NCBI GenBank assembly: GCA_026415655.1
Contig: JAOAGR010000004.1
Coordinates: forward strand, 43 to 64,042
Reading direction: 5' to 3'
Source: Candidatus Dojkabacteria bacterium
GTDB lineage: Bacteria; Patescibacteriota; Dojkabacteria; JAOAGR01
DNA: 64,000 nt
Shown piece after piece: positions 10,296 to 64,000 of this stretch. Below the pieces are notes generated by a model that saw nothing but the letters and a program-made list of their open reading frames with translations, had not been told where the DNA came from and ran no database searches. A program made the position numbers and the translations under genes. How positions within the stretch are numbered: the first letter of the stretch is position 1; every line of letters begins with the position of its first letter.

Positions 10296-10690
10296 AATAA
10301 AAAGATAATATTTTATATCATGAATAGTATCCAGTACAAAGTAATAAAAGCATTCCCGATTATAATGTTTGTAATTATTAACATAATCTTAATAACACTA
10401 GTTTCTATACTAGGTTATTATTACTTTACAAATAATCGACAAACAAATAATCAAAACTTAAGTAAGCCCTCCCCTACTACTACTCCTAGTGAAAATGTAA
10501 TCATTGATAATGATCTAGCCGATGAACTATTTAGAGGAAATAATACGCAAACCGATACACCAACGCCTACATCAACAACAACTCCATCACCAACTCAATC
10601 ACCAAGTTCCAGTCCCTCACTTACAGTCACAAATACCACAATAACCAACACTCCACAACGTCAAACACAGTCCCCACTTCTATCGATAAC
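10296..10690 (+). repeat. Direct repeat copy 1 (about 390 bp, ~95% identical to 18243..18627) covering promoter-proximal region and first ~120 codons of a surface protein gene
   Basis: Near-identical nucleotide runs read at both loci (atatcatgaatagtatcca...caacgtcaaacacagtcccc...cacttctatc). Confidence 0.75.
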
Positions 10691-10934
10691 TTTAACTGAT
10701 CAAAACAAAATCAATGAAATTCAAACAATCCATTTTCCCGACGAAGTAAAATGGACGCACATTGAGAAGCTGGTTAAATCAAGAGCCTATTCATTAGGTT
10801 TTAATGATAAATTCAGTTATTATTCGCAATTAAAAGTTACTCAATGTAATACCTGTCTAGATCGATACAGGTCTTTTAATTGGTCCGATCTAGAAGAGAT
10901 GATAAGAGTCGGTATTTTAAAGAAAGCTTTTTAA
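10320..10934 (+). CDS. Membrane-anchored protein with Pro/Thr/Ser-rich linker (paralog A; shares N-terminus with 18256..19533)
   Basis: N-terminal TM helix, TTTPSENV...PTPTSTTTPSPTQSPSS low-complexity linker, unique 90-aa C-terminus. Confidence 0.5.
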   Translation: MNSIQYKVIKAFPIIMFVIINIILITLVSILGYYYFTNNRQTNNQNLSKPSPTTTPSENVIIDNDLADELFRGNNTQTDTPTPTSTTTPSPTQSPSSSPSLTVTNTTITNTPQRQTQSPLLSITLTDQNKINEIQTIHFPDEVKWTHIEKLVKSRAYSLGFNDKFSYYSQLKVTQCNTCLDRYRSFNWSDLEEMIRVGILKKAF

Positions 10935-11148
10935 TAATCAAATCTTGATTTTATTACAGGGCATCTATTATCTGACTCCTCAATATAAGTTTAGATATTA
11001 CTCAAAATAACACTGACTTAATTATTAAACCTATCCTGCAATCTCAACAAATTTAAAATGCTACAATTATGAACTAGCCAGTAAATCCGAGAATATTTCT
11101 GATTATCCTTCTTATAGAGAATAAATCTCATTGATCGTTCTAGAATGA

Positions 11149-11154
11149 TATAAT
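11149..11154 (+). promoter_or_regulatory. Candidate extended -10 element (TGaTATAAT) upstream of mod gene; weak -35 TTGATC 12 nt upstream
   Basis: Sequence tgatataat 19 nt upstream of ATG 11173; spacing to -35 is suboptimal. Confidence 0.25.
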
Positions 11155-11172
11155 GAAAAATATTATTGTTTT

Positions 11173-14148
11173 ATGACAAAAGAGCAAAAATTTTACCAAG
11201 CATTACAAGATGTATTTATCGGCGCAAAGATTGAAGGCACTGGTGGATTTGTTAATTTAATGAGAATAAAATCAAATTACTACAAAAAGATTGAGGAATT
11301 ACTCAAGAAAGATATTGAAAAAGCATTAGAAAGATATTCATCATTCAGAGATGAACTTTTTGATAAACTTTATTCATTTTTCAGTAGATATTTTACAGAA
11401 AGTGGATCAATATACTTCAATTCTACACCATTTCATAACAACATTTATGAAAAAGTTTATACCGATGATAAAGATGTTATTCTCTTCTGGAAAACACAGA
11501 TGCTTTACTATGTAAAAACCGACAGAATATTTAGAAGCTTAGAGATAGAAAGTGATGGGCATAAGTTTTTCTTTGATGTAAGTAATCTTGAACACAAGAA
11601 AGCAAATGAAAAACGAAGTTTGATATATGAATTAAAAGAAGTAAAAGAAGACAAGACTATTATTCTCAATGTTTATTATTCCGAAAAAGGAAGAGTAACA
11701 AAAACAGAAGATATACTAAAAGAATTGAAAAAGAAACATATAAGCCTAACCGAAGAAGAGTTAGAGAAATCATTTAGGATTTTTGAAAAACAAAGCGAAG
11801 TAGATTTTTTTATCAACAAAAACGCAAAAGCATTTTTACAGGAGCAGTTTAAGTTATGGAGTTATCAGTACTTTTGGGAAGGGGCAAAAGAGTGGAGTGT
11901 AGATAGAGTAAACCAGTTACAGATACTAAAAGACATAGCTTTTAAGATTATAGATTTTATCAGTCAGTTTGAAGATGAGCTAGTAAAGGTATGGAACAAA
12001 CCGAAGTTTGTAAAGAATAGTAATTATGTGATAACACTGGATAGGATAAATAACATAGAATTGATTGAAGAAATATTGAAGCATAAAGGTATAGAAGAAC
12101 AGGTAAAAGAATGGAAAGAGTTAGGAATAGTAGACGAAGATTTCAAGATAGATGATATTTTTGACAATTCCCCTTCTATGAAGGGGTGGCAGGCAGAGCC
12201 TGACGGGGTAGTCAGATGGAATGAATTACCTTTTGATCTTGAACTCAAAGAAACAGCCAAGGAACTGAGAAAAGCCGGTAATTTATCCGAGGTTTTATTA
12301 TGGAATCAAATCAAAAATAAAAAATTTTTAGGCTTGGACTTTGATAGACAAAAAATCATAGGAAATTACATTGTTGATTTTTATTGCAAGGATTTGGGGG
12401 TTGTTATTGAGATTGATGGTGCAAGTCATGATGAGAAAGTCGAATATGACAGAAAAAGAGATAAATATTTAGAAAGTTTGGGGTTAAAGGTAATACATAT
12501 TCTTGATACAGATGTAAAGAATAATCTTCAGGGGGTAATTGAGTTTTTAAAACGCGAAATTAAACACCCCGTCCCTTCGGGACACCCCTCTATTAGAGGG
12601 GAATTTAGTCATCTACCGATAGATACAAAATATTTCAAAGATTTAGAACTGGAAATACTTAGTCAATTTGATGATTTAGACAATGCTTTAGATGGATGGT
12701 TAATAAAAAGTGAGAACTATCAGGCTTTAAATACTATACTGCCAAAGTTTAGGGAAAAAATGCAGACGATTTATATAGATCCGCCGTTTAATTTAGATTC
12801 ATCTGATCAGTTTTTGTATAGGACTAACTACAAAGATGCAAACTGGGCAACACTACTTGAAAACAGGATAAGGATAGCTAGAGAATAGCTAAACGAAAAA
12901 GGAAGCATTTTTGTAAGGTGTGATTATAACGGAAACTGGATTGTAAGACCTCTAATGGATGAGATTTTCGGGGGGGAGAATTTTAGGAATGAGATTGTGA
13001 TTACTCGCGGTATGCAAACCAGAAAAGCAGAGAATAGATTATTAAATAAAACAGACTCGTTATTTTTCTATTTCAAGAATTCGGAGAGTGGGATTTTATA
13101 TATTCTTGAAAGAGAAAAAGAACATGTGAAGCACTACCAAGAAACATTAAGAACTCTCAAGAGATTAATTGATGATGAGATTTATAGAGAAATAGAGAAA
13201 AAATTAAATGAATCCCTTTGGATGCCTTTTCTAAGTATGCCAGGGGAACAAAAAACTAATGGGTATAGACAGATTTTCGGAATTAAGTTAAATCCACCTA
13301 AAGGACGGCACTGGGCTTTTTCACAAGAGAATTTAGATATAGCCGTTAAAGAAGGATTAGCGAGATTAAAATGTTTGAATTGCGGAACGATTATTACAGA
13401 AAATAACCAAATAGAAGACGGAAAATGCAGAGATTGTGGCAGTGAATCTTTTCAAGGAGAAATATTAAGCCTATATAACCAAATAAATAACAATTGGACA
13501 GACATCCCAGGATATGAACAAGACCCCGAATTTCCTACTCGCAACTCCGAAATCCTCCTCAAGCGTGTCATAGAATCCACATCCAACGAAGGCGATTTAG
13601 TTATGGATTTCTTTTTAGGTAGTGGTACCACTACAGCCGTAGCCCATAAACTTGGTAGGAAATGGATAGGAACAGAGATGGGAGAACACTTTTATACTGT
13701 AATTTTACCAAGGATGAAAAAAGTTTTAGCTTATGATAAATCAGGAATATCAAAAGAAAAAGATGTAAAAGAAAAGTACAATGAAAAAAATGCAGGCGGG
13801 TTTTTCAAATACTATGAACTTGAACAATATGAAGAAGCATTAAACAACTGTGTATATGAAGACAGTGATATATTCACTTCATCTAACAAATCACCTTATG
13901 AACAGTATGTATTTTTGAAAGATGAAAAGATGCTAAAAGCTTTAGAGATAGATTATCAAAACAATAAAGTAAAAGTAGATTTAGATAAACTTTATGAAAA
14001 TATTGACATAGCAGAAACCTTATCAAATCTCACAGGAAAATGGATAAAGAAAGTAAGAGAAAATGAAGTGGAATTTGAAGATGGCACAATAATAAACACA
14101 GAAGATTTGGATTATAAATTTATTAAGCCGTTGATTTGGTGGGAATAA
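11173..14148 (+). pseudogene. mod: Type III R-M methyltransferase (Mod, beta-class N6-adenine MTase) interrupted by in-frame TAG at 12886-12888; carries a ~360-aa N-terminal extension and an embedded DUF559 endonuclease-like domain
   Basis: ORFs 11173..12888 and 12955..14148 are in the same frame and the 66 nt between them translate without stop (LNEKGSIFVRCDYNGNWIV); DPPFN motif IV (~12790), FLGSGTT motif I (~13610), order IV-TRD-I; DUF559 signature LLWNQIKNKKFLGLDFDRQKIIGNYIVDFYC...IEIDGASHD at ~12280-12570. Confidence 0.75.
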
Positions 14149-14154
14149 TTTTTT

Positions 14155-15141
14155 ATGAAAAAAGAAAAGTTTAAAAAAGGTGAAATTATTATTTACAAGT
14201 CCAAAGAAGGCCCCAAACTTGAAGTTAGATTTTCTGCTGAAACTGTTTGGCTAAGACAGGAAGAAATAGCAAAGTTATTTGGCAAAGAAAGATCAGTAAT
14301 TACCAAGCATATCAAAAAAATTTTTACCGATAACGAAGTAGATAAAAAAAGCAATGTGCAATTTTTGCACATTCCAAACTCTGATAAGCCAGTTGCATTT
14401 TATAGTCTTGATGTAATTTTAGCAGTAGGTTATCGCACCAATTCTTCAAGAGCCATCCAGTTTAGAAAATGGGCTACTCAGATCTTAAAGAATTATTTGT
14501 TGAGAGGATACGCTCTAGATCAAAAAAAGTTACTCCACACACAAAACGCCTTAAAAGATTTGCAAGAGACTATCACTCTACTACAAGAAAAGTCAAGAGG
14601 CGAATTGCTTGCTGGACAACAGCAAGAAATTTTAAATCTGCTCTCAAACTATGCTAAAACTCTTAGTTTACTCGAACAATACGATAAAGAAAAAATTAAT
14701 CTCATAAAAAAAGCAAAAGACAAGTTTATTTTACAATACGATGAAGTAAAATCAATAATAGAAAATATAAAGAAAGAACTTATTGCCAAAAAAGAAGCAG
14801 GCTATTTATTTGGAAGAGAAAATAATGAAAATCTCAAAGCCATTTTAGGAAATATCTACCAGACATTTGGTGGTAAAGAACTCTATCCAAGTTTAGAAGA
14901 AAAAGCAGCACATCTGTTATATTTTATTATTAAAGATCATCCTTTTGTCGATGGTAATAAAAGAATAGCTTCTTTTTTGTTTATTTATTTTTTAGATAAA
15001 AACAATTATCTGTATAAGCAAAATGGTGAGAGGAAAATCAATGATAATGCTTTGACAACTCTGGCTCTTTTAATTGCAGTAAGCAATTCAAGTGAAAAAG
15101 AAAAAATAATAAAAATTATTACAAATCTAGTGGGTTTATGA
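14155..15141 (+). CDS. RhuM-family N-terminal domain fused to Fic/Doc domain (HPFVDGNKR motif)
   Basis: RhuM signature (EVRFSAETVWLRQEEIAKLFGKERSVITKHIKKIF...VGYRTNSSRAIQFRKWATQILK) and Doc-type motif HPFVDGNKRIASFLF; stop overlaps res start (ATGA). Confidence 0.75.
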   Translation: MKKEKFKKGEIIIYKSKEGPKLEVRFSAETVWLRQEEIAKLFGKERSVITKHIKKIFTDNEVDKKSNVQFLHIPNSDKPVAFYSLDVILAVGYRTNSSRAIQFRKWATQILKNYLLRGYALDQKKLLHTQNALKDLQETITLLQEKSRGELLAGQQQEILNLLSNYAKTLSLLEQYDKEKINLIKKAKDKFILQYDEVKSIIENIKKELIAKKEAGYLFGRENNENLKAILGNIYQTFGGKELYPSLEEKAAHLLYFIIKDHPFVDGNKRIASFLFIYFLDKNNYLYKQNGERKINDNALTTLALLIAVSNSSEKEKIIKIITNLVGL

Positions 15142-18104
15142 AACACTACTTACAAAACATAGTATCAAACCTTGATATTAACAATATTCCAGCGGACTGG
15201 TCGGATATTGATTTTGAAATATTTTCTAAAGATAAAAAACTTTTTGACTATCAACAAAAAGCATTGGAGCATGCGCTGAAATCCTTGTATTTATTTTATC
15301 AGGAAGACAATGGAGATAAATCTAAATTTTATAACAGATTTATTAATAACGGATTAACAGAAGATTTATCTTACAATGTTAAAAAGGAAAGCAAAACCAT
15401 AAAATACCTTTTAGAATACGATAAAGATTATCCTGTAGATAATGAAAAAATTTCATTTAAGCACCTTATAAACCGAATGTCTTTCTGGATGGCAACAGGT
15501 AGTGGTAAAACTCTTGTTATTGTTAAGCTTATCGAATTGCTTGCGTATCTTATCAATCAAAATAAAATACCTAAAAAAAATATTTTATTTTTGACATACA
15601 GAGAAGATCTAATTGAACAATTTAAAAATCATCTTGAAGAGTTTAATTCAGTTAATTCTGATAGCTTTATTAGTCTTATAAATCTGAAAGACTATTCTTC
15701 AAGAAAGCAAAATCCAACATTAAGTTTTGGCAATAGTATTGATATTTTTTATTATAGAAGTGATTTAATTTCAGATGAACAAAAAGATAAAATTGTAAAT
15801 TTTAAAAATTACGAAAATAACGGTAACTGGTATATTATCCTGGATGAAGCACACAAAGGCGACAGAGAAGATAGCAAAAGGCAGATATTCTATTCAATTT
15901 TAAGTAGGAATGGATTTTTGTTTAATTTTTCAGCGACATTCACAGATGAAAGAGATTTTGTAACCTGTGTTTATAATTTCAATCTATCAAAGTTTATCGA
16001 AGAAGGCTATGGTAAACATATTTACATTTCCAAACAAAGTGTAAATGCTTTAGAACAGAGAAATACAATAATTGATAACGAAAAACAGAAGATACTACTT
16101 AAATTATTTATTCTTCAATCTGCGATAAACAAACAATTTGAGGAAATACGAAAAGTAATTGGAAATCTTTATCATAAACCACTGTTGCTTACACTTGTAA
16201 ATTCTGTAAATACTGAAGATTCCGATCTTGAGTTATTTTTTAAGGAGATAGAAAAAATTGCAAGCAACAATATTGATAAAAGTATTTTTGAAGAAGCCAA
16301 AAACAATCTTTTACAGGAATTAGAAAGTAAAGATGCAAAATATGAATTTGAAGACATCCGCATTGACACTTCCATTCGCAATTCTATCAAACAAATACAA
16401 CCATCAGATTTGTTAAGGTATATTCTAAACTCCGCAAAACAGGGAAAAATTGAAGTAATAAAACTACCTTCAAACAAACAGGAATTGATTTTCAAACTTG
16501 CTACATCTGACCAACCATTCGCTTTGATGAAGATAGGCGATATAACCGAGTGGATAAAAAATAAACTCTCTCATTACGAAATAATAGAACGTTTTGAAAA
16601 CGAAAGTATTTTCAAAAATATCAATACAAATGAAGACATCAATATATTGATGGGGTCACGGGCTTTTTATGAGGGCTGGGATAGTAATAGGCCAAATCTT
16701 ATTTTGTTTATAAATATTGGAAAAGGAACGGATGCAAAAAAATTTGTACTTCAATCCATAGGTCGTGGAGTCAGAATTGAACCTTTGCCAAATAAAAGAA
16801 AGAGGTTGGTAAATCTATACAACAATAATGAAGTAGATGAAAGTCTTTATAATATAGTAAAAAATAATATTTTAGGACTTGAGACTTTATTTGTTTTTGG
16901 GACAAAAGCAGAAAACTTAAAAGAAGTTATTGAAACACTTAAACAGGAAAAAACAGAAGTTTTACTTGGTGATTTGTTTGAGATTAATCCAGATGTGTTA
17001 GATAAAGAACTGTTAATTCCACAATATAAAAAATCAAATAATTTGATTATAGAAGAAAAAGAAGTGATACAGTTTCCAATTAATGAAAATGATTTTGACG
17101 AAGTTTCAGACTATTTTAATTATATAGGCGATAAAGTTGCATTATGTAAATATGATTGCAATATCAAAGTTTTATCAAAGCTTAAAGAAGCATTTAATGG
17201 AAAAAAACAAAATTACTTTTTAATAAGTAATGATGAGTCAAAAGTTGGAAAACCAGAGGTGTTACTTTCGTTGATATTTAAACACTTTTCAAATGTTACA
17301 GAGGAATTTTCTAATTTCAAAAAGTTAAAAGAAGAGATCATCCACTTTAAGAGAATTCAAATTACACAAGACAAACTAAATTCTTTAAGAGAAAAGATTG
17401 AAAAGGTTAAGAGAGCAAAAGATAAAGATAAAATTGAAAAAGAACTTGATGAAAAATTTGACAAAGGTGAAGTTTCAAAAGAACAATACAAGCAACAAAT
17501 TAAAGAAATCGAATCAAATATAGTCAAAGAAGCAGAAACTCAATATAACACAAACGAGAAAATTAAAATAAAACTTTTACAAAACCATTATTACATACCT
17601 CTGGCTTTATCTGAAAGCGAAACAGCTGATTACATACAACATGTAATTAAACATAAAGGTGAAATTGATTTTCTAAACGAACTTGAAAACTACTTAAATC
17701 AAAACAACAATTTATTTAAACAATTTGACTGGTGGTATTTTTCTAAAATTGATGAAACACTGGATAACGTTTACATTCCTTATTACAATCCGAAAACAAA
17801 TAGAATAGATAGATTTAAGCCTGATTTTATCTTCTGGTTAAAAAAGGATAATAACTATACAATCTTATTTGTTGATCCAAAAGGAACAGAGCATACTGAT
17901 GGATATAGAAAAATTGATGGTTTTTCAAGGATTTTTGAGGAAAAAGTCAATGGACACGAACAAAATAGAAATTTTGCATATAACGGATTCACATTAACTG
18001 TAAAACTATTATTAAAAACTAGATCAGGGATAGGAAGTGTTTTGAATAAGTACAAAAAATACTGGTTTGATAACTTTGTTGATTTTTCGAATAAAATTAA
18101 GTAA
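15138..18104 (+). CDS. res: Type III restriction enzyme Res subunit (SF2 helicase + PD-(D/E)xK nuclease)
   Basis: Walker A MATGSGKT, DEAH box ILDEAHKG, motif VI QSIGRGVRI, C-terminal KPDF...VDPKG nuclease motif; 988 aa. Confidence 0.8.
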   Translation: MKHYLQNIVSNLDINNIPADWSDIDFEIFSKDKKLFDYQQKALEHALKSLYLFYQEDNGDKSKFYNRFINNGLTEDLSYNVKKESKTIKYLLEYDKDYPVDNEKISFKHLINRMSFWMATGSGKTLVIVKLIELLAYLINQNKIPKKNILFLTYREDLIEQFKNHLEEFNSVNSDSFISLINLKDYSSRKQNPTLSFGNSIDIFYYRSDLISDEQKDKIVNFKNYENNGNWYIILDEAHKGDREDSKRQIFYSILSRNGFLFNFSATFTDERDFVTCVYNFNLSKFIEEGYGKHIYISKQSVNALEQRNTIIDNEKQKILLKLFILQSAINKQFEEIRKVIGNLYHKPLLLTLVNSVNTEDSDLELFFKEIEKIASNNIDKSIFEEAKNNLLQELESKDAKYEFEDIRIDTSIRNSIKQIQPSDLLRYILNSAKQGKIEVIKLPSNKQELIFKLATSDQPFALMKIGDITEWIKNKLSHYEIIERFENESIFKNINTNEDINILMGSRAFYEGWDSNRPNLILFINIGKGTDAKKFVLQSIGRGVRIEPLPNKRKRLVNLYNNNEVDESLYNIVKNNILGLETLFVFGTKAENLKEVIETLKQEKTEVLLGDLFEINPDVLDKELLIPQYKKSNNLIIEEKEVIQFPINENDFDEVSDYFNYIGDKVALCKYDCNIKVLSKLKEAFNGKKQNYFLISNDESKVGKPEVLLSLIFKHFSNVTEEFSNFKKLKEEIIHFKRIQITQDKLNSLREKIEKVKRAKDKDKIEKELDEKFDKGEVSKEQYKQQIKEIESNIVKEAETQYNTNEKIKIKLLQNHYYIPLALSESETADYIQHVIKHKGEIDFLNELENYLNQNNNLFKQFDWWYFSKIDETLDNVYIPYYNPKTNRIDRFKPDFIFWLKKDNNYTILFVDPKGTEHTDGYRKIDGFSRIFEEKVNGHEQNRNFAYNGFTLTVKLLLKTRSGIGSVLNKYKKYWFDNFVDFSNKIK

Positions 18105-18242: not shown

Positions 18243-18627
18243 TAATATTTATATCATGAATAGTATCCAATACAAAGTAATAAAAGCATTCCCGATTATG
18301 ATGTTTGTAATTATTAACATAATCTTAATAACACTTGTTTCTATACTAGGTTATTATTACTTTACAAATAATCGACAAACAAATAATCAAAACTTAAGTA
18401 AGCCCTCCCTTACTACTACTCCTAGTGAAAATGTAATCATTGATAATGATCTAGTCGATGAATTATTTAGAGAAAATAGTACGCAAACCGATACACCAAC
18501 GCCTACATCAACAACATCTCCATCACCAACTCAATCACCAAGTTCCGGTCCCTCACCTACTGTCACAAATACCACAATAACCAGCACTCCACAACGTCAA
18601 ACACAGTCCCCCACTTCTATCCCGACA
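18243..18627 (+). repeat. Direct repeat copy 2 (partner of 10296..10690)
   Basis: See copy 1. Confidence 0.75.
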
Positions 18628-19533
18628 ACCACACAAAGAATACCGAATACAACTATTACAAATACTCCTTCAACAAACCCATTTAGTGTATCTGATTTTG
18701 TATCTATCTATGATGATTATACCGGTATTGAAATAAGCAGAATAAAATATTGGAAAGAGGATTATGAAGGACTAGTTGACTTACCTGCATTTTATAAGAG
18801 ATTTGTAGATGAAAATGGGAAAATCGTTGCCGAATATGAACTTTTACCATACGCCAATAATACTGTACCGACCCCAACACAATTGCTTTCTCAATACACT
18901 ATTTTAAATAGGCCTACCAAACAATATATCAGCCAAGATGAATATGTCATAATCGAAATAAGATTTTATCCGAATGAATTTGTCAACAATAATACAGTGA
19001 CTAGATTGAAGTTTTACTATCTAGATAATAATGAAAAAGTCAGGAAATTTGCTAACGAAACAGAAAAACAATATTTGATACAACTATCAAATGCTATTTC
19101 CAACTCTGTCAAATATACTACTATCACTACTATTACGCTAAATAATAAATACACATTTTATTTTCCAATATACAAGAATTTTTCTATAAACGGTAATAGC
19201 AATAGAATCATTGTTTATGAAAAAGATAACTTATCTGTACCCAAATTAACAATTAAACCATATCTAGATGATTTTATATCAACGTGTTACGATCTTAAAA
19301 ATGTTGATGGAGTAGACTATAACTCCAACTTTGAGATCATCGTCAAGGAAGGAAGCTTAAAGAATACAGAAGGTTGTTCTAGCGCCACAAAAAGTGTAAT
19401 CATATTTGAAATTAAAAATCATTTGTATATAACTATATTCTCTACTGATTCTAACTATGGCTATATGGGGGCTGTGGGTGATGGAAACATATTATTAGTT
19501 GATTACGTACTTGACTCTTTGAAAATCTTATAA
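18256..19533 (+). CDS. Membrane-anchored PT-rich surface protein (paralog B, 425 aa, different C-terminal domain)
   Basis: N-terminal 115 aa nearly identical to 10320 ORF, then unique ~300-aa domain. Confidence 0.5.
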   Translation: MNSIQYKVIKAFPIMMFVIINIILITLVSILGYYYFTNNRQTNNQNLSKPSLTTTPSENVIIDNDLVDELFRENSTQTDTPTPTSTTSPSPTQSPSSGPSPTVTNTTITSTPQRQTQSPTSIPTTTQRIPNTTITNTPSTNPFSVSDFVSIYDDYTGIEISRIKYWKEDYEGLVDLPAFYKRFVDENGKIVAEYELLPYANNTVPTPTQLLSQYTILNRPTKQYISQDEYVIIEIRFYPNEFVNNNTVTRLKFYYLDNNEKVRKFANETEKQYLIQLSNAISNSVKYTTITTITLNNKYTFYFPIYKNFSINGNSNRIIVYEKDNLSVPKLTIKPYLDDFISTCYDLKNVDGVDYNSNFEIIVKEGSLKNTEGCSSATKSVIIFEIKNHLYITIFSTDSNYGYMGAVGDGNILLVDYVLDSLKIL

Positions 19534-27171: not shown

Positions 27172-28116
27172 ATGAGCAATCAAAGTTTCTACAATAAAAG
27201 AAGAGAAGGAACAAAAACCAGTGCTTTTGGCACGCCGGGCAGAATTAACCATGACTCGTCAAAATTTTATAACAGCAAACTTTATGAGGGATTGAATAAT
27301 GGAAAAAATGTTGAGTATGTGGAAAATCAAATTGATCCTCAAAATATAAATAAAGTTTTTTGTAAAAGTAGCGAAGCTATGTCAGAACTTCCGGACAATA
27401 GTGTTCACTTAATGGTTACTTCGCCGCCCTACAATGTGGGTAAAGAATATGACGAAAACTTATCTCTCAAAGAATATAGGGATTTATTAAAACGAGTATT
27501 CAAAGAGACGTATAGAGTTTTGGTTCCTGGCGGTAGGGCATGTATAAATGTTGCTAATCTCGGGAGAAAACCCTATTTACCCCTCCACAGCTATATCATT
27601 GAGGATATGCATAATATTGGTTTTTTAATGAGGGGTGAGATTCTTTGGGATAAAGGAAGTAGCGCTAGCCCTTCTACTGCTTGGGGAAGTTACCTAAAAG
27701 CAAATAATCCGGTATTGCGAGATATTCATGAGTATATTCTTGTTTTTTGCAAAGATACATTCACCAGATTAAACCCACACAAGAGGAAAAGCACTATCTC
27801 AAAAGAAGAATTTTTGGAATTTACAAAAAGCATTTGGAAATTCGCCGCAGAGCGAGCCTCAAAAGTAGGACACCCCGCACCTTTTCCCATTGAACTACCT
27901 TATCGCTTAATTCAACTTTACACTTTTGAGGGCGATGTCGTTTTAGATCCATTTGTTGGAAGCGGAACAACTTGCATCGCTGCGTTAAAAACCAACAGAA
28001 AATATGTTGCTTATGACATTGATAAAAAGTACTGCGATTTGGCAGAACGGAGAATAAAGCAATTTTTACAGAAACAAACAACACTTTTTTCAAAAGAATT
28101 TGCCGCCAAAGAGTAA
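27172..28116 (+). CDS. DNA methyltransferase, beta-class N4-cytosine/N6-adenine (motif IV TSPPYN before motif I DPFVGSGTT)
   Basis: SPPY catalytic motif at aa ~85, FxGxG SAM motif near C-terminus; typical of PvuII/BamHI-like type II MTases. Confidence 0.8.
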   Translation: MSNQSFYNKRREGTKTSAFGTPGRINHDSSKFYNSKLYEGLNNGKNVEYVENQIDPQNINKVFCKSSEAMSELPDNSVHLMVTSPPYNVGKEYDENLSLKEYRDLLKRVFKETYRVLVPGGRACINVANLGRKPYLPLHSYIIEDMHNIGFLMRGEILWDKGSSASPSTAWGSYLKANNPVLRDIHEYILVFCKDTFTRLNPHKRKSTISKEEFLEFTKSIWKFAAERASKVGHPAPFPIELPYRLIQLYTFEGDVVLDPFVGSGTTCIAALKTNRKYVAYDIDKKYCDLAERRIKQFLQKQTTLFSKEFAAKE

Positions 28117-59934: not shown

Positions 59935-61827
59935 TCAGAAAACAATCTTTATATCTTCCTTGTAATTTTGTAATGTGGCATTTAAGCTTGCTGTCCAACC
60001 GTCTATAAACACTTTACCTCTTTTAATACATTCAGCAAATTGTTCTTTACTTACCTTATCACTATTGGTTATATAGTAATTATCCCCAACTTTGTAAACG
60101 CAATCTTTTACAACTTCTTCGGGTGTTTGTGTTGGTTCGTCTAATCCTACAGTGAAAATCATGTTGTAGATACGACTTAAAGGATCAAGATTGATTTCGG
60201 GATACTTTATTTTTCCGTCTTCTGCTAATTCTAATCTTGGAGCGTCTACGGTATCAAATACCTTGAAACCAATATCAGGTGTTTTCTTTTTATTTTCATC
60301 AAAAAAGCCTTCTTTGTTATTCTCTTCTTCAATTTCTTTTTTAATCTTTTCTCCCGCCCTTTTTAATCTTTCAATAGTGATGCTTGAGATAACTGGCGGT
60401 AGATTGTTTTCTATACAAAACTGATAAGCTGGTTTATCTTCTTTTATTGGCTCATCTATTTGTACAAGTATAAATTTTCTATTGCACTCATCTTCGGCAT
60501 TTAATCTCATCACTGCTTCACCTGTTGTGCCACTGCCTGCGAAAAAGTCAAGGACGAGGTCAGAAGAGGAAGTCGAAATTTCAACAAGAAATTTAATATA
60601 TTCTTTAGGTTTAGAATAGTTAAAAACAGGATACCCAAATAATTCGTCTATATACTTATTTGATTGCGTCGTAGAATATTTAGAAATTACCCCCAAAGGT
60701 TTGATTGATCTTGGTTTAATATTGCCATCACTATCACAATTTAAGTATTGTTTTGTATATACCGCCCAATTATTATTTTTGTCTTTTTTTATTACTACAA
60801 AACCATTTTTTATTCCCCATTCTAATTTTTCTTTACTCCATCTCCAACGAGAAATTTTTTCATTATTTTTATTAGGAATAATTTTAGTTCCATCCGGTGC
60901 TTCAATTGGATAATCTAGAGATTCAACATAACCCAAACTAGCACTATCCAATTTAATAAGTTGATATTTTCCTCTTTCCTTTTCATATTCATCGCTTAAT
61001 TTATACCTTTCTACATCCTCAACACTCAAACCAGAAATTTCAAATTTTTCTTTATTCTTTGCATAAACTAAAAGATATTCATGCTTAATCCTAAAGTGTT
61101 TACTATCAGAGCTACCTCCACCTTATTTATTTTCCCATACTAATTTCGCCACAAAATTTTCTTCCCCAAAAATCTCATCACAAAGTAATTTCAAGTTTGC
61201 TTGCTCATTATCATCAATACTAATAAAAATCACTCCATCATCGCTGAGTAAATCTCGTGCTAATAAAAGTCGTGGATACATAAATGCAAGCCAGCCGCTA
61301 TGGCTTTTCTTCGTCTTAAAAGTAAACACCATCCTTGCAAAATCATCATCGCTTAGATTAGCAAGTCCCAACACTTCAGATTCTTCTTTATCAAATTTAT
61401 CAGGATAAACAAAGTCGTCATTGCCAGTATTGTATGGCGGATCTATGTATATGCATTTTATCTTTCCACTGTAATAATTTTTGAGTATTTTCAGACAATC
61501 TAGATTATCCCCTTTTAATACAAGATTTTGAGTTGTGTCAAAATTTTTACTCATTTCTGTATTTACTTTTAATTCTTTATTTGTCTTTTGTGCATACCTT
61601 GCTCTCGCTACATTCCTGCCAACAAAATTTAACCCATATCCATTTACTTTTTCATCGACAGGCAAGCCTACTGCTGTTTTTAGTTCTTGTACATTGATTT
61701 CGTTATCTTTAATAATATTTGGATAATGTTCTTTCAAAAACTTGATAAGCTTATTTTCTTCTTTATCATTATCTGAGCTTAATACTGTGAATCCTGCATT
61801 AATAAATTCTTGTATTGTTTTATCCAT
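59935..61827 (-). pseudogene. mod: Type III R-M methyltransferase (Mod) interrupted by in-frame TAA (61123-61125)
   Basis: ORFs 61123..61827 (DPPYN motif IV) and 59935..61029 (DFFAGSGTT motif I) share a frame; the 93 nt between translate GGGSSDSKHFRIKHEYLLVYAKNKEKFEISG with no stop and align with EcoP15I-like Mod core (HEYIYVYAKN). Confidence 0.75.
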
Positions 61828-61829
61828 AA

Positions 61830-64000
61830 TCAGACTTGTTTTATTAAATCAATTAATTCTGTTCTATTTATTCGTTCTTTAAATATAATTTTAACATTGT
61901 CATTATTATATTTCTTAGTTAGCTCTTCAAAATATTTCTTTGCAAAATCAATTTTGTCTTTTTCACTTGTAGGTATTTCTGTGTATGTGTTATAACCTTT
62001 AGCCTCAACAATAAGATACAATTTATGTCCATCTTTGTTTTTTATGACATAACAAAAATCAGGGCTATATTCACCTAGTGGAGTTTTAATTTTTAATCGT
62101 GGTAGTTTTGCAAAAATTTCTATGCTCTCAATATCAGGATCCCCTTCTACAATATCCAATTCAAAATCACTATCGTATTCAATTATATCTTCGAAGATCC
62201 ATTTGGTTTTTAGAGAAAAATCTTTTTCAATATCCTTTTGATATTTTCCTGTAGTCCCTGGTTCTAAATAGGCTCTGTCTTTATCTTTCTTAAATATATT
62301 GGGTAGTCCTACACCATCGATACCATCATATTTTATATTTGTTTTTATTATTGCTATTAGATGTTTTTTTATTATTTCACTAATCTCGTTTTGTGCTCGT
62401 TCGGGATTGTTGCAAAGTATTTTCTCTCTAAAATTTATACTTAAAGTGTTAAATATTTTAACCACGAAAGAAAGAGGAGTTTTTGTGCTATTTGATATAG
62501 CATGTACGAATTCAATATAATCGACTTTACTTTTATAAGAAATTGTATTTACCAAAGATTTTGTGATAGCATTTTCTTGATCAATTTTTCTTACATTAAT
62601 ATCAGTACGAATGGTTTGAAGTAAAATCTCTTCTATATTAAGTTTTTCTATTTCGGCCCTAATGTTATAAATAAGTTGTTTTTCCTCTTCTTCATTTAAA
62701 TTATCTAAAATATAAAACGAATTTTTATTTATCGTATTCCACAAATCCTGAAATTCTTTAAGATGAGTGGGTTTAATATATAAATTATTTTTATTCTTTT
62801 TCTTGCTTGCTTTTTGGGCGTAGGTTTTAGCATCTGAAGCAAATATATTTTCTAATACTTTTGTTTGTTCAATCGGCAAGTTTAACTGTTTTAGTTTAAT
62901 AGAATAATCAGGAGATTTTTCATATATGTCAATCCCATCTACATTTCCTTTAAAGATTATTAGTTCATTTTCATCTAGTTTTTTAAATAAGTTACGGGTT
63001 GTCGTATCGTCAAATTTCCCTCTTTCTTTTATTAATTTCTTTAGTTCATTCTCGCCAAATGTTTCGGGAATGAGGAAAGAATTATTGAGTATTTCTCTCT
63101 GTATAGATTCAACAAAACCTTGTTCTTTACCTGAGACAATAACATCAAGGTTATTAAGCTTCCAGAATAGCTCCTGATCTTCGTTCAAAGTCTTTAATGT
63201 TTGCCTTTGTAATTCTTGATTTACACAAATTCTAAGACCACGACCAATCTGCTGTAGTTTTGATATATCACTTCCTTGATTAGACAATTTACAAATAGTA
63301 AAGACATTTGGATTATCCCAACCTTCTTGTAATGCCCAGATAGAAAAAATAAAACGGGTTGGACTTTCAAATGAAAGTAGTCTTTTTTTATCATTTAATA
63401 TCTCATCAACTCCCGCTTGTATTTTTTCGTCTTTATTTCCTTTATCACCAGAAAAATATCCTTTATGGATCTGCAAATTGCCCTCATTGTCAAAATCATT
63501 TTTTAGGTATTTATAATAATCGCTATCTTCTGGAATCGAATTTATAATTTCGTCTCTTTTTAAGATATATTCTTCTTCAAAAAATTTTTTAATCCTTGCA
63601 TTATCGCCGCGATAAAGACTTATATCATTGGGAATAAAAAATAAAGTTAGCGCTTTTATTCCTTTTTCAAATAAGATTTGTTCTTTTTCAAAATGTATCT
63701 TAATGGTTTGTCTGATCATTGACCTTATAGATTCGTCAGACAATGAATAATCTATTGTTTCTATAGTATCAGCTGATAAAACAATGTTGTCTTTATTGAT
63801 CTTTTTGATACTTTTTCCATTAAAAATAGATCCGATGCCCAGTTCGCGTCTTATAACTACTCCATTTGAAATGGTATTTACAATAGCTTTTTTGTCTTCG
63901 ATACCAACTAAAGTATCTTTATTTTCTACACTATCCTGCGTATAAACTACAATTTTCTTCACTAAACTCTGACGAAAAGAGCTAATGCTATCTAAAACAT
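61830..64000 (-). CDS. res: Type III restriction enzyme Res subunit, 5' end beyond window
   Basis: ORF open to window edge upstream of the GTG called by the track; helicase motif VI QQIGRGLRI, C-terminal nuclease SPDF...LIVEAKG. Confidence 0.8.
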   Translation of the reverse strand, partial: VLDSISSFRQSLVKKIVVYTQDSVENKDTLVGIEDKKAIVNTISNGVVIRRELGIGSIFNGKSIKKINKDNIVLSADTIETIDYSLSDESIRSMIRQTIKIHFEKEQILFEKGIKALTLFFIPNDISLYRGDNARIKKFFEEEYILKRDEIINSIPEDSDYYKYLKNDFDNEGNLQIHKGYFSGDKGNKDEKIQAGVDEILNDKKRLLSFESPTRFIFSIWALQEGWDNPNVFTICKLSNQGSDISKLQQIGRGLRICVNQELQRQTLKTLNEDQELFWKLNNLDVIVSGKEQGFVESIQREILNNSFLIPETFGENELKKLIKERGKFDDTTTRNLFKKLDENELIIFKGNVDGIDIYEKSPDYSIKLKQLNLPIEQTKVLENIFASDAKTYAQKASKKKNKNNLYIKPTHLKEFQDLWNTINKNSFYILDNLNEEEEKQLIYNIRAEIEKLNIEEILLQTIRTDINVRKIDQENAITKSLVNTISYKSKVDYIEFVHAISNSTKTPLSFVVKIFNTLSINFREKILCNNPERAQNEISEIIKKHLIAIIKTNIKYDGIDGVGLPNIFKKDKDRAYLEPGTTGKYQKDIEKDFSLKTKWIFEDIIEYDSDFELDIVEGDPDIESIEIFAKLPRLKIKTPLGEYSPDFCYVIKNKDGHKLYLIVEAKGYNTYTEIPTSEKDKIDFAKKYFEELTKKYNNDNVKIIFKERINRTELIDLIKQV

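What the first reader, a model, noticed from the sequence alone, without database searches (positions are those of the whole stretch)
11173..14148. Type III Mod gene with nonsense interruption, 360-aa N-terminal extension and an embedded DUF559 endonuclease-like module
The two ORFs are one gene split by a single TAG at 12886-12888. The catalytic motifs flank it: DPPFN upstream, and the NEKGSIFV...DEIFGGENF block and FLGSGTT downstream, in beta-class order.

The first ~470 residues have no counterpart in canonical Mod proteins. By comparison, the second Mod in this window begins ~130 aa before its DPPY motif.

Inside that extension a complete DUF559 domain is fused in frame: LLWNQIKNKKFLGLDFDRQKIIGNYIVDFYCKDLGVVIEIDGASHD...RDKYLESLGLKVIHI. 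DUF559 is a Vsr/very-short-patch-repair-like fold that is usually a tiny standalone protein.

A CxxC-(n)-CxxC zinc ribbon (KCLNCG...CRDCG) also sits in the target-recognition region.

A methyltransferase carrying its own nuclease-like module is an unusual architecture.
Basis: partly seen in the sequence, partly recalled or inferred. Interest (0 to 1): 0.6.

Follow-up and report, generated by a model that had tools for sequence, protein, structure and literature searches.

The report
Dead Mod gene with selfish DUF559 insert
This is a type III restriction-modification methylase gene of a common, already catalogued subfamily. It has been knocked out by one stop codon, and its "built-in nuclease" looks like a small selfish DNA element, flanked by hairpin repeats, that sits in frame inside the gene.

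Summary
ORFs 11173-12888 and 12955-14148 are one beta-class Mod gene split by one in-frame TAG. That codon replaces a conserved Trp (TGG>TAG). A second assembly with 16 SNPs has the same TAG, and TAG is an ordinary stop elsewhere in the window. The gene is a pseudogene.

- **N-terminal region.** The ~330-aa domain is not a private extension. It occurs in over 1,000 protein clusters and is covered by a PADLOC type III methyltransferase profile.
- **DUF559 block.** It is real (PF04480, 9e-29) but not a designed fusion. It is a ~444-nt cassette bracketed by an inverted pair of a ~45-nt double-hairpin module.
- **Polymorphism.** 36 of the 120 genes compared (119 homologues plus the window gene) carry DUF559. 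It sits at three or more sites and in three subfamilies. Filled and empty alleles have N-domains up to 96.6% identical.
- **Spread.** The same module occurs alone, in frame, in unrelated genes across many phyla. DUF559-containing copies sit inside type I and type ISP restriction genes. Stem covariation argues for selection on the hairpins themselves.

Most likely this is a selfish, in-frame-tolerated endonuclease element inside a dead Mod. Mobility and nuclease activity are inferred. I found no description of it in the searchable literature.

The parts
11173..14148 (+). Type III mod gene (991 codons plus stop), a pseudogene interrupted by one nonsense codon
   Evidence: Single frame with one internal stop. 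PF01555 match spans the stop. PADLOC MTase_III PDLC03638 matches both halves. Sequence matches to type III Mods 6k0w, 4zcf and 7dsu.
12886..12888 (+). In-frame TAG nonsense codon replacing a conserved Trp (TGG>TAG)
   Evidence: Aligns to W in 12 of 15 homologues. Same TAG in the second assembly L127. TAG ends 4 other ORFs of 150 aa or more in the window, and none of the window's 3 tRNAs is a suppressor.
11173..12165 (+). Family-wide N-terminal domain (~331 aa) of this Mod subfamily; function unknown
   Evidence: 70-80% conserved in all close homologues. 1,188 clusters at 50% identity. Covered by positions 3-353 of PDLC03638. Model pLDDT 84.6 with no Foldseek PDB neighbour at E<=1e-3. No Pfam or NCBIfam hit.
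12164..12212 (-). Left double-hairpin module (terminal inverted repeat), translated as NSPSMKGWQAEPDGVV
   Evidence: Inverted repeat 12166-12188 / 12583-12605 and GACGGGGT / ACCCCGTC. nhmmer hit to the module profile, E 1.3e-5, minus orientation. DNA fold z -3.2. GC peak 0.47 against a background of ~0.29.
12244..12558 (+). DUF559 (PF04480) Vsr-like PD-(D/E)xK endonuclease-fold domain
   Evidence: PF04480 8.9e-29. 3hrl by sequence at 3.6e-14. In the model of homologue P0004 this domain superposes on 3hrl with TM 0.90 and rmsd 1.5. It keeps all positions that are invariant across 20 relatives, including D..E.DG..H.
12559..12607 (+). Right double-hairpin module (terminal inverted repeat), translated as KHPVPSGHPSIRGEF
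   Evidence: nhmmer E 7e-13, plus orientation. Two hairpins, GTCCCTTCGGGAC and CCCCTCTATTAGAGGGG, with DNA fold z -3.5. Nearly identical to solo in-frame modules in homologue L002.
12778..12792 (+). Methyltransferase motif IV (DPPFN)
   Evidence: D536, P537, P538, F539 and N540 are invariant.
13372..13440 (+). CxxC-(n)-CxxC putative zinc ribbon in the variable target-recognition region
   Evidence: Four Cys conserved in the homologues that share this region variant. Weak rubrerythrin-like NCBIfam hit, 0.0026, below cut-off.
13612..13632 (+). Methyltransferase motif I (FLGSGTT, AdoMet binding)
14155..15141 (+). RhuM + Fic/DOC gene inserted between mod and res
   Evidence: PF13310 1e-19 and PF02661 4e-14. 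PADLOC PDC-S23 9e-114. Homologous operons carry other cargo or none at this place.
15138..18104 (+). res gene (SF2 helicase; C-terminal PD..DxK-like motif KPDFIF..VDPKG), intact
   Evidence: PF04851 2e-18. 67% identical over 987 aa to the Res next to an insertion-free Mod in L001. No PADLOC REase_III hit.
10312..10611 (+). Left copy of the 300-nt direct repeat bracketing the 7.9-kb restriction-modification island
   Evidence: 97% identical to 18248-18547, spacing 7,936 nt.
18248..18547 (+). Right copy of the 300-nt direct repeat bracketing the island

Best explanation
**What it is.** The region is a horizontally acquired type III restriction-modification operon (mod, rhuM/fic, res) in a Candidatus Dojkabacteria genome. 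Its mod belongs to a large, already catalogued Mod subfamily. That subfamily has a ~330-aa N-terminal domain of unknown function, then a beta-class methyltransferase with a central variable target-recognition region.

**Two later events changed the gene.**
1. *Insertion.* A ~444-nt cassette sits in the linker between the N-domain and the methyltransferase. It is a DUF559 (Vsr-like PD-(D/E)xK) endonuclease ORF bracketed by an inverted pair of a ~45-nt double-hairpin module. It is read in frame, so the host protein is lengthened rather than broken. The hairpin arms become disordered linker peptides, and DUF559 folds as a separate domain.
2. *Inactivation.* A TGG>TAG mutation at conserved Trp572 truncates Mod inside the catalytic core.

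**Consequence.** In type III systems Res depends on Mod for target recognition (established knowledge of the EcoP15I type). The whole system is therefore most probably inactive, and this carries no toxicity.

**Shown.**
- gene structure, family membership and the nonsense codon in two assemblies;
- the inverted hairpin repeats;
- presence/absence polymorphism, multiple insertion sites and multiple DUF559 subfamilies;
- occurrence of the module and of DUF559 in unrelated genes;
- covariation in the hairpin stems.

**Inferred.**
- that the cassette is, or was, mobile;
- that DUF559 is the enzyme that moves it, either by break-induced copying into empty alleles (homing-like) or by hairpin-directed insertion;
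- that solo modules are MITE-like or decayed derivatives;
- that in-frame copies are the ones selection lets survive.
For: **Gene and family**
- One frame, one stop.
- PF01555 and PF04480 both match.
- PADLOC MTase_III PDLC03638 covers the N-domain and the C-terminal half.
- Type III Mods 6k0w, 4zcf and 7dsu are the nearest solved structures by sequence and by fold.
- A mod-res operon is conserved in homologues.

**Nonsense codon**
- The TAG aligns to a conserved Trp.
- The genetic code looks standard.
- The same TAG is in a second assembly with 16 SNPs.

**Cassette architecture**
- 23-nt terminal inverted repeats plus an inner 8-nt pair.
- Exactly two module-profile hits in the 64-kb window, in inverted orientation around DUF559. 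There are none in the insertion-free Mods L001 and L004.
- GC peaks at both borders.
- The same orientation rule holds around 21 other DUF559 ORFs: upstream modules 23 opposite and 4 same; downstream modules 10 same and 4 opposite.

**Polymorphism**
- 36 of the 120 genes compared (119 homologues plus the window gene) carry DUF559.
- Site A and site B are both used, and a third site occurs near aa 42 in P0130.
- Three DUF559 subfamilies occur at site B.
- Filled and empty pairs have N-domains up to 96.6% identical.
- DUF559 cores interleave with standalone copies and across sites.

**Spread**
- The closest relatives of the block are standalone 120-240 aa ORFs from many phyla that carry the same flank peptides.
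Of 148 modules, 23 lie within 250 nt of a DUF559 ORF and 24 lie inside stop-free frames of 300 aa or more.
- In-frame hosts of the module or of DUF559 include HsdR, HsdS and type ISP enzymes, and also MacB/FtsX, a tRNA methyltransferase, a radical SAM protein and T9SS-tail proteins.

**Structure**
- The inner stem has 78 distinct sequences in 148 copies. It keeps 2.51 extra base pairs against 0.63 in shuffles (maximum 0.85).
- In the protein model the flanks have pLDDT below 50, while DUF559 is confident and matches 3hrl.
Against: - **No sign of activity in this genome.** No second copy of the module or of DUF559 occurs in the 64-kb window. The cassette probably arrived with the island.
- **No clean insertion signature.** There is no target-site duplication. 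At site B the cassette replaces 13 host codons, and at site A it replaces 4. That is not the signature of simple cut-and-paste insertion. It also fits an old insertion followed by allelic recombination and loss.
- **Possible functional link.** Six of ten sampled in-frame hosts are restriction-modification genes. That could instead mean a functional association.
- **Untested biochemistry.** DUF559 has no demonstrated biochemical activity, and no experiment shows mobility.
- **Sampling bias.** The module loci were chosen with a strict pattern, and the standalone relatives were found with a query that included the flanks.
- **The two assemblies may be related.** They may come from related samples, and reads were not inspected.
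Confidence: 0.68

Rival explanations
1. Functional fusion. The DUF559 domain was recruited by the Mod, and by other restriction-modification enzymes, as a working nuclease, nicking or repair module. The hairpin-encoded peptides are simply flexible linkers.
For: - DUF559 is kept in frame, with all family-invariant residues, in dozens of Mods.
- It also occurs inside HsdR and type ISP enzymes, and 6 of 10 sampled in-frame hosts are restriction-modification genes.
- In the window there is no conserved internal start codon, so DUF559 can only be made as part of the Mod polypeptide.
- The TAG lies downstream, so the N-domain-DUF559 fragment could still be made.
Against: - Presence or absence differs among alleles with 96.6% identical N-domains.
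- At least three insertion sites and three DUF559 subfamilies are used.
- 84 of the 120 compared genes, and the PADLOC family profile, lack DUF559.
- The closest relatives are standalone ORFs.
- The flanks are inverted nucleic-acid hairpins with compensatory stem changes. This shows selection at the DNA or RNA level, not on a linker peptide.
- Identical modules occur alone in non-restriction genes and between genes.
Confidence: 0.15
2. The gene is actually functional. Either the TAG is a sequencing or consensus error, or it is decoded (suppressor tRNA or read-through), or the two halves are made separately and reassemble as a split Mod. Re-initiation would be at TTG 12910 or ATG 12955.
For: - The break lies after a predicted helix and before the next strand (model of P0004).
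- An AAGGAAG sequence precedes the in-frame TTG at 12910.
- res is intact.
- Coverage of the ENA contig is only about 4x, judging from the contig name.
- The other type III mod in the window also has exactly one nonsense codon, which could hint at something systematic.
Against: - The same TAG is in two assemblies that differ by 16 SNPs and in upstream gene content.
- TAG terminates 4 other long ORFs normally, for example 69-1268, which is followed directly by the next gene.
- No suppressor tRNA is in the window.
- The second Mod's stop is TAA (GAA>TAA), a different codon, so no common recoding rule applies.
- The lost Trp lies in a conserved core segment.
- The AAGGAAG sequence is forced by the conserved peptide NEKGS.
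Confidence: 0.1
3. The DUF559 block is removed after transcription or translation, as an intron or an intein, so the mature Mod lacks it.
For: It is an in-frame insertion at a conserved site of a conserved gene. It contains an endonuclease of a fold used by known homing endonucleases (I-Bth0305I; PMC3239194, PMC3424549).
Against: - No Rfam family, including group I and II introns, matches 10900-14400 at E<=1.
- No Hint or intein Pfam domain is found.
- The junctions (N|SPS...GEF|S) lack the C-terminal His-Asn of inteins.
- The ORF is continuous through both junctions in all carriers.
Confidence: 0.03

Closest known systems
Type III restriction-modification Mod subunits (EcoP15I Mod 4zcf; H. 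pylori Mod 6k0w; Mbo45V Mod 7dsu); PADLOC profile MTase_III PDLC03638
   Same: - Beta-class N6_N4 methyltransferase with motif IV, then a central variable target-recognition region, then motif I.
- An adjacent ResIII-helicase res gene.
- The PADLOC profile matches over its whole length, including the N-domain.
   Different: - It carries a ~330-aa N-terminal domain that is absent from EcoP15I-type Mods and has no solved structural neighbour.
- The partner Res matches no PADLOC REase_III profile.
- This copy is truncated by a nonsense codon and carries the DUF559 cassette.
DUF559 / PF04480 (structure 3hrl, N. gonorrhoeae NGO0050), in the Vsr clade of PD-(D/E)xK nucleases
   Same: Strong profile match, the same fold in the homologue's model (TM 0.90), and a conserved D..E.DG..H signature.
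   Different: It is embedded in frame inside a 991-codon gene instead of being a ~100-180 aa standalone protein. No function is known for the family. Vsr itself (T:G mismatch nicking after 5mC deamination) belongs to a different Pfam family.
[quoted passage not shown]
   Same: - Short palindromic repeats found inside unrelated ORFs in frame and translated into extra peptide segments.
- They sit in surface loops or linkers and are tolerated by the host protein.
   Different: - The modules are ~45 nt, against ~100-150 nt for RPEs.
- They are spread over many phyla rather than one genus.
- They occur as an inverted pair around an endonuclease ORF, which gives a candidate autonomous form. RPEs have no known encoded enzyme.
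- No target-site duplication is seen.
Homing endonuclease genes, especially the Vsr-like/EDxHD family (I-Bth0305I; PMC2677866, PMC3239194)
   Same: An endonuclease of a related fold, sitting at the same site of a conserved gene in some alleles but not in near-identical others.
   Different: It is not housed in an intron or intein and is not free-standing between genes. It is translated as part of the host protein. It belongs to a different sequence family (PF04480). Cleavage of the empty allele is untested.
REPtrons (REP-associated tyrosine transposase genes flanked by inverted REP hairpins)
   Same: An enzyme gene bracketed by inverted copies of a short hairpin repeat that also occurs many times alone. 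(Resemblance stated from general knowledge; architecture shown.)
   Different: The enzyme has a PD-(D/E)xK fold and is not a Y1/HUH transposase. The repeats and the gene lie inside coding sequences and are translated, whereas REPs are extragenic.

Membership tests
Type III R-M Mod (beta-class N6A/N4C DNA methyltransferase) | Motif order IV (D/N/S-PP-Y/F), then target-recognition region, then motif I (FxGxG) | tested here: met
   DPPFN at aa 536-540 and FLGSGTT at aa 814-820, with a variable region between them.
Type III R-M Mod (beta-class N6A/N4C DNA methyltransferase) | Profile membership (Pfam PF01555 above the gathering score; a type III Mod profile) | tested here: met
   PF01555 scores 123.8 bits against 26.7. 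PADLOC MTase_III PDLC03638 gives 2.6e-171 for ORF1 and 3.9e-98 for ORF2.
Type III R-M Mod (beta-class N6A/N4C DNA methyltransferase) | Adjacent res gene encoding an SF2 helicase with a C-terminal nuclease | tested here: inconclusive
   PF04851 ResIII 2e-18. The operon partner is conserved in homologues. A PD..DxK-like motif is read from the sequence. However, no PADLOC REase_III profile matches.
Type III R-M Mod (beta-class N6A/N4C DNA methyltransferase) | Intact ORF and methyltransferase activity | tested here: not met
   A nonsense codon sits at conserved Trp572 in two assemblies. Enzymatic activity itself cannot be tested here.
DUF559 (PF04480), Vsr-like PD-(D/E)xK fold | Profile score above the gathering threshold over the full domain | tested here: met
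   100 bits against 20.6, profile positions 3-107 of 109.
DUF559 (PF04480), Vsr-like PD-(D/E)xK fold | Fold of 3hrl and conserved acidic/His signature | tested here: met
   The model of homologue P0004 has the same cassette type at the same site; window-type DUF559 cores are 80-82% identical to each other. Its DUF559 domain matches 3hrl with TM 0.90 and rmsd 1.5. Residues invariant in 20 relatives are all present.
DUF559 (PF04480), Vsr-like PD-(D/E)xK fold | Nuclease activity | not testable with these tools
   No biochemical data are available for the family.
Homing endonuclease gene | Presence/absence polymorphism at one site among otherwise near-identical alleles | tested here: met
   P0019/P0113 and P0006/P0119 have N-domains 96.6% identical. 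Junctions are identical among site-B carriers.
Homing endonuclease gene | Housed in a self-splicing intron or intein, or free-standing between genes | tested here: not met
   No Rfam hit. No Hint domain or intein junction residues. The block is translated in frame.
Homing endonuclease gene | The endonuclease cleaves the empty allele near the insertion site | not testable with these tools
   This needs an in vitro cleavage assay.
MITE/RPE-like in-frame palindromic element | Terminal inverted repeats or palindromic structure | tested here: met
   Stem covariation is shown.
MITE/RPE-like in-frame palindromic element | Target-site duplication | tested here: not met
   Comparing empty and filled DNA shows that host codons are replaced (13 at site B, 4 at site A) and that there is no duplication.
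MITE/RPE-like in-frame palindromic element | Many dispersed copies, including in-frame copies in unrelated ORFs | tested here: inconclusive
   Met across public genomes: 148 modules in 120 stretches with several per locus in L012, L052 and L125, and hosts from HsdR to radical SAM. Not met in this window, where only the one inverted pair occurs.
REPtron | Y1/HUH (RAYT) transposase flanked by inverted REPs | tested here: not met
   The flanking inverted hairpins are present, but the enzyme is PF04480, not a Y1 transposase.

The most novel reading that the evidence does not exclude
DUF559 (PF04480) proteins, a large family with no assigned function, may be the endonucleases of an undescribed and very widespread class of bacterial mobile elements. 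Each element is an inverted pair of a ~45-nt double-hairpin module around the ORF. Abundant solo modules would be MITE-like derivatives. The elements survive inside protein-coding genes by being translatable in frame, and they are seen repeatedly in restriction-modification genes (type I HsdR and HsdS, type ISP, type III Mod). This would be an RPE-like phenomenon across many phyla, with a candidate mobilising enzyme. It would also be a third way for an endonuclease gene to live inside a host gene, besides introns and inteins.
Probability: 0.3. Interest if true: 0.75.

Novelty: new variant of a known kind. Interest (0 to 1): 0.5.

Why it matters
**For the window.** Annotators should treat the two ORFs as one type III mod pseudogene. 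NCBI currently calls them 'endonuclease domain-containing protein' and 'site-specific DNA-methyltransferase'. The system should be expected to be silent. Both type III mod genes in these 64 kb are knocked out by single nonsense mutations.

**More generally.**
- The many 'methylase + Vsr endonuclease' and 'HsdR + DUF559' architectures in databases are probably not engineered multi-domain enzymes. They look like host genes carrying a selfish cassette, which changes how such domain combinations should be read.
- If DUF559 really mobilises the hairpin modules, a large family of unknown function would gain a role.
- In-frame palindromic colonisation of genes is so far a Rickettsia curiosity. It would become a general bacterial phenomenon with a testable enzyme.
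- The ~330-aa N-domain of this large Mod subfamily also remains without a known fold relative or function.

Tried and rejected
- **Alternative genetic code or TAG recoding.** Rejected. TAG ends 4 other long ORFs, the stop usage among the 46 ORFs of 150 aa or more is TAA 30, TGA 11 and TAG 5, and there is no suppressor tRNA.
- **Assembly artefact or chimeric fusion.** Rejected. A second assembly has the same TAG and the same cassette, and dozens of homologues have the same junctions.
- **Intron.** No Rfam match at E<=1.
- **Intein.** No Hint domain and no junction residues.
- **Structure of the window protein with the stop changed to Trp.** Homologue P0004, which has the same site and the same cassette type, was modelled instead. 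The result was only moderate (pLDDT 63, pTM 0.39), so inter-domain geometry is not interpreted.
- **Clean target-site duplication or exact insertion point.** None found.
- **Other copies of the module in the window.** None.
- **Look-up of P0053's contig.** Not on record. Its ENA twin P0391 was used instead.
- **Literature.** Searches for DUF559, PF04480, 'very-short-patch-repair endonuclease' with inverted repeats, and 'endonuclease domain-containing protein' with MITE found no description of this element. Subscription journals are not covered.
- **Programmed inversion between the repeats.** Considered because DUF559 proteins are enriched among predicted inversion targets (PMC9881135). There is no evidence for it here and it could not be tested.


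Full report
**1. What is in the sequence**

ORFs 11173-12888 (571 aa) and 12955-14148 (397 aa) are in the same frame. Translating 11173-14148 gives 992 codons with one internal stop, TAG at 12886-12888.

With the stop masked, Pfam gives two strong matches:
- N6_N4_Mtase at aa 531-843 (1.3e-35), which runs straight across the stop;
- DUF559 (PF04480) at aa 358-462 (8.9e-29, 100 bits against a cut-off of 20.6).

DPPFN (12778-12792) lies before the stop. NEKGSIFV and FLGSGTT (13612-13632) lie after it. The pair CLNCG / CRDCG lies in the variable middle region. Downstream come a RhuM + Fic/DOC gene (14155-15141) and a 988-aa ResIII helicase gene (15138-18104).

**2. The stop codon is real and inactivating**

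- In an alignment with 15 homologues the TAG column is Trp in 12 of them (AREWLNEKGS), so the change is TGG>TAG, one transition.
- Among the window's 46 ORFs of 150 aa or more, the stops used are TAA 30, TGA 11 and TAG 5, the last including this one. Other genes end normally in TAG. None of the window's three tRNAs is a suppressor.
- The two ORFs are deposited as MCX8034959.1 and MCX8034960.1 from a Candidatus Dojkabacteria MAG.
- A second assembly, ENA ERZ3623746 NODE_72 (locus L127), is 99.78% identical over 7,255 nt. It has 16 SNPs and different gene content upstream, and it has the same TAG.

An assembly artefact is therefore unlikely, although reads were not available.

res is intact. It is 67% identical over 987 aa to the Res that follows an insertion-free Mod in locus L001. 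From established knowledge of type III systems, Res needs Mod for DNA recognition. Loss of Mod should therefore silence the system without toxicity.

**3. The 'N-terminal extension' is a family trait**

More than 4,500 database proteins match the gene. The best are 60-80% identical over the whole host part. The first ~330 residues are among the most conserved parts of the alignment, in homologues with and without DUF559.

Searching aa 1-331 alone against 1.84 billion cluster representatives finds 1,188 clusters at E<=1e-3 and 207 at E<=1e-30. Nearly all place the match at the N-terminus of 750-920 aa proteins. PADLOC's MTase_III profile PDLC03638 has 816 positions. It matches ORF1 aa 2-340 on positions 3-353 and matches ORF2 on positions 468-816. 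This Mod subfamily, N-domain included, is therefore already catalogued as type III.

The methyltransferase part is closest to the type III Mods 6k0w, 4zcf (EcoP15I) and 7dsu, both by sequence and by fold.

The N-domain has no Pfam, NCBIfam or PDB sequence match. A confident model (pLDDT 84.6, pTM 0.69) has no Foldseek neighbour in the PDB at E<=1e-3. Its function stays unknown.

**4. The DUF559 block is a cassette with inverted hairpin arms**

*Anatomy in the window*
- The block is bounded by AATTCCCCTTCTATGAAGGGGTG (12166-12188) and CACCCCTCTATTAGAGGGGAATT (12583-12605), which are 23 nt long and 78% complementary.
- An inner perfect pair, GACGGGGT / ACCCCGTC, follows.
- Each arm folds into GC-rich hairpins (z about -3.2 and -3.5).
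- Both borders are GC peaks in a 30% GC genome.

*The same module occurs alone in a homologue.* In P0004 (locus L002), which has the cassette at the same place, three further short in-frame insertions are present. At the DNA level two of them (at site A and near aa 730) show the full two-hairpin unit of the cassette's right arm. For example, AAACACCCTGTCCCTTCGGGACACCCCTCTTAAAGAGGGGAATTT compares with the arm AAACACCCCGTCCCTTCGGGACACCCCTCTGTAAGAGGGGAATTT. The third, GWTAEGRTGYLP, reads as a partial copy in the opposite orientation and was not detected by the profile below. The left arm is the reverse complement of the same unit.

*Profile search.* A nhmmer profile built from 153 copies finds exactly two hits in the 64-kb window: 12559-12607 on the plus strand and 12212-12164 on the minus strand. 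It finds none in the insertion-free Mods L001 and L004. It finds four in L002, of which two flank DUF559 and two are solo.

*Protein model.* In the AlphaFold model of P0004 the DUF559 part is confident and superposes on 3hrl (TM 0.90, rmsd 1.5). The translated arms have pLDDT below 50.

Site A lies in a coil before helix 295-302 of the N-domain model. Site B lies in the inter-domain linker.

**5. The cassette is polymorphic, and so is its position**

- 36 of the 120 genes compared (119 homologues plus the window gene) carry DUF559.
- It sits after ITLDRI (site A) in some and after DVFEN (site B, as in the window) in others. In P0130 it sits after about aa 42.
- At site B three different DUF559 subfamilies occur, each with its own flank peptides.
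- Filled and empty alleles can have N-domains 96.6% identical. Examples are P0019/P0113 and P0006/P0119. P0035/P0066 reach 96.2%.
- DUF559 cores do not group by site or by host. P0058 (site B) is closest to P0025 (site A). P0028 and P0063 are closest to standalone proteins.
- At the DNA level all site-B carriers of the window's type share the same junctions. The cassette replaces 13 host codons at site B and 4 at site A, and there is no target-site duplication.
- A solo module at site A of P0004 has the same right junction as the full cassette of P0006.

**6. The cassette and its module exist far beyond this gene**

The closest relatives of the 146-aa block are standalone 120-240 aa ORFs, 60-75% identical, with coverage often including the flanks. 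They come from Parcubacteria, Gallionella, Nitrosomonas, Thiothrix, Bacteroidota and cyanobacteria. They carry the same flank peptides, NSPSxKGWQAKPDGVV and TPPxEGN or HPSxRGE.

Among the 148 modules found:
- 23 lie within 250 nt of a DUF559 ORF;
- 24 lie inside stop-free frames of 300 aa or more.

Around 21 DUF559 ORFs, upstream modules are opposite in orientation 23 times and the same 4 times. Downstream modules are the same 10 times and opposite 4 times. This is the arrangement seen in the window.

In-frame hosts of the module or of DUF559 include the following:
- HsdR (L024; L056, with DUF559 between HSDR_N and the helicase);
- HsdS (L018);
- type ISP or IIG-like enzymes (L012, L093);
- a MacB/FtsX permease, a tRNA U5-methyltransferase, a radical SAM protein and several T9SS-tail proteins.

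The inner stem of the module has 78 different sequences in 148 copies, yet it keeps 2.51 extra base pairs against 0.63 in shuffles (maximum 0.85). Selection therefore acts on the hairpin itself, not on the encoded peptide.

**7. Interpretation**

The simplest reading is that DUF559 was not recruited by the methylase. It is the cargo of a selfish, hairpin-flanked element. The element persists inside genes because it can be read through in frame at permissive loops.

How it moves is inferred, not shown. Two routes are possible:
- A homing-like route, in which a break in an empty allele is repaired from a filled one. This fits the identical junctions among diverged Mods and the replacement of host codons.
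- Ectopic insertion, which is needed to explain sites A, B and C and the unrelated hosts.

In this genome nothing suggests current activity. There is only one copy, it sits inside a 7.9-kb island bracketed by a 300-nt direct repeat, and its host gene is already dead.

The rival reading is a functional fusion. It is weakened by the polymorphism and by the nucleic-acid-level conservation of the arms. It is not excluded, particularly because 6 of 10 sampled in-frame hosts are restriction-modification genes.

**8. What is known**

- Vsr, DUF559 and DUF2726 form one PD-(D/E)xK clade that also contains the intron homing endonuclease I-Bth0305I (PMC3424549, PMC3239194, PMC2677866).
- In-frame palindromic insertions are known from Rickettsia RPEs and some other MITEs (PMC10969869).
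- 'DUF559 domain-containing protein' is listed among annotations enriched in predicted programmed-inversion targets (PMC9881135). This may simply reflect such cassettes sitting in restriction-modification genes.
- I found no paper describing DUF559 as a hairpin-flanked in-frame element. The library is incomplete.

**9. Verdict**

The gene is an ordinary member of a known type III Mod subfamily, and it is a pseudogene. The 'unusual architecture' is common in this family and is best explained as a selfish cassette.

The cassette itself combines features of known element types in a new way:
- terminal hairpin repeats, as in MITEs and REPtrons;
- an endonuclease gene, as in homing elements;
- in-frame read-through, as in RPEs.

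I rate it a new variant of a known kind and worth a dedicated census and a biochemical test. Interest in the finding as given is moderate (0.5). The novel reading has a probability of about 0.3 and would merit about 0.75 if true.

Noticed in passing
window 59935-63962 (minus strand): A second type III-like system sits at the right end of the window. It has a Res C-terminal part (61833-63962; RE_endonuc; PADLOC REase_III 1.7e-83) followed by a Mod. That Mod is also split by exactly one in-frame stop, TAA at 61125-61123 ('VWENK*GGGSSDSKHF'). A plasmid homologue has Glu there, so the change is GAA>TAA. Both type III mod genes in these 64 kb are therefore nonsense pseudogenes, with different stop codons.
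   Followed up: partly
window 10312-10611 and 18248-18547: A 300-nt direct repeat (97% identical, spacing 7,936 nt) brackets the mod-rhuM/fic-res island. It duplicates the 5' part of a Ser/Thr/Pro-rich membrane-anchored protein gene (ORFs 10320-10934 and 18256-19533). This suggests the island was inserted or recombined into that gene.
   Followed up: partly
window 12180 and 12566 versus L127: Between the two assemblies, the only two SNPs inside the whole 2,976-nt mod gene both fall in the hairpin modules. They are G>T in the left arm and A>C in the right arm, giving M335I and H465P.
   Followed up: no
window 14155-15141; L002 8669-14271; L004 8586-9350; L130 3541-4039; L131 2684-3182: The slot after mod holds different cargo in different homologous loci. 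In the window, L002 and L004 a res gene follows the cargo; in L130 and L131 the sequence held ends before any res. The cargo is:
- RhuM+Fic (PADLOC PDC-S23) in the window;
- an AAA_23/SMC-like ATPase, SLFN/AlbA_2, M78 peptidase and DUF4411 in L002;
- a 254-aa unknown protein in L004;
- a Piwi-domain protein directly after mod in L130;
- a Fic protein in L131.
   Followed up: no
window 15138-18104: The Res partner of this Mod subfamily matches Pfam ResIII but none of PADLOC's REase_III profiles at E<=1e-5. The other Res in the window does match them. Automated defence-system callers may therefore score this subfamily as an orphan type III methylase.
   Followed up: no
L010, L055, L062, L073, L091, L104 (Ignavibacteria-type loci): The hairpin module is inserted, in opposite orientation and in frame, at the same position of the C-terminal sorting-domain-like tail of several different proteins. 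The sequence there reads ...FNPxTxIxFxI-PLSRGVSAGRG-VxxKLxIYDxxG.... L073 was confirmed as Por_Secre_tail.
   Followed up: partly
P0130 (protein, contig 1,488 nt): A fragment starts like this Mod (MTKEQKFYKALQ...YYRKIEE) and then runs into hairpin peptides and DUF559 after about residue 42. This indicates a third insertion site in the same gene family.
   Followed up: no
homologues P0051, P0038, P0058, P0079, P0091 at site A: A different short in-frame insert (IFACHSEQSE, LSACHSRES, LSARHSERSE, LSDRHSKSDIARE) occupies site A in several DUF559-free or site-B alleles. It looks like another family of translated palindromic repeats using the same permissive loop.
   Followed up: no
window 27172-28116: A third, intact beta-class N6_N4 methyltransferase (SPPY motif, PF01555 6e-47) follows a 293-aa ORF that has no Pfam hit. 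It may be a type II system or an orphan methylase.
   Followed up: no
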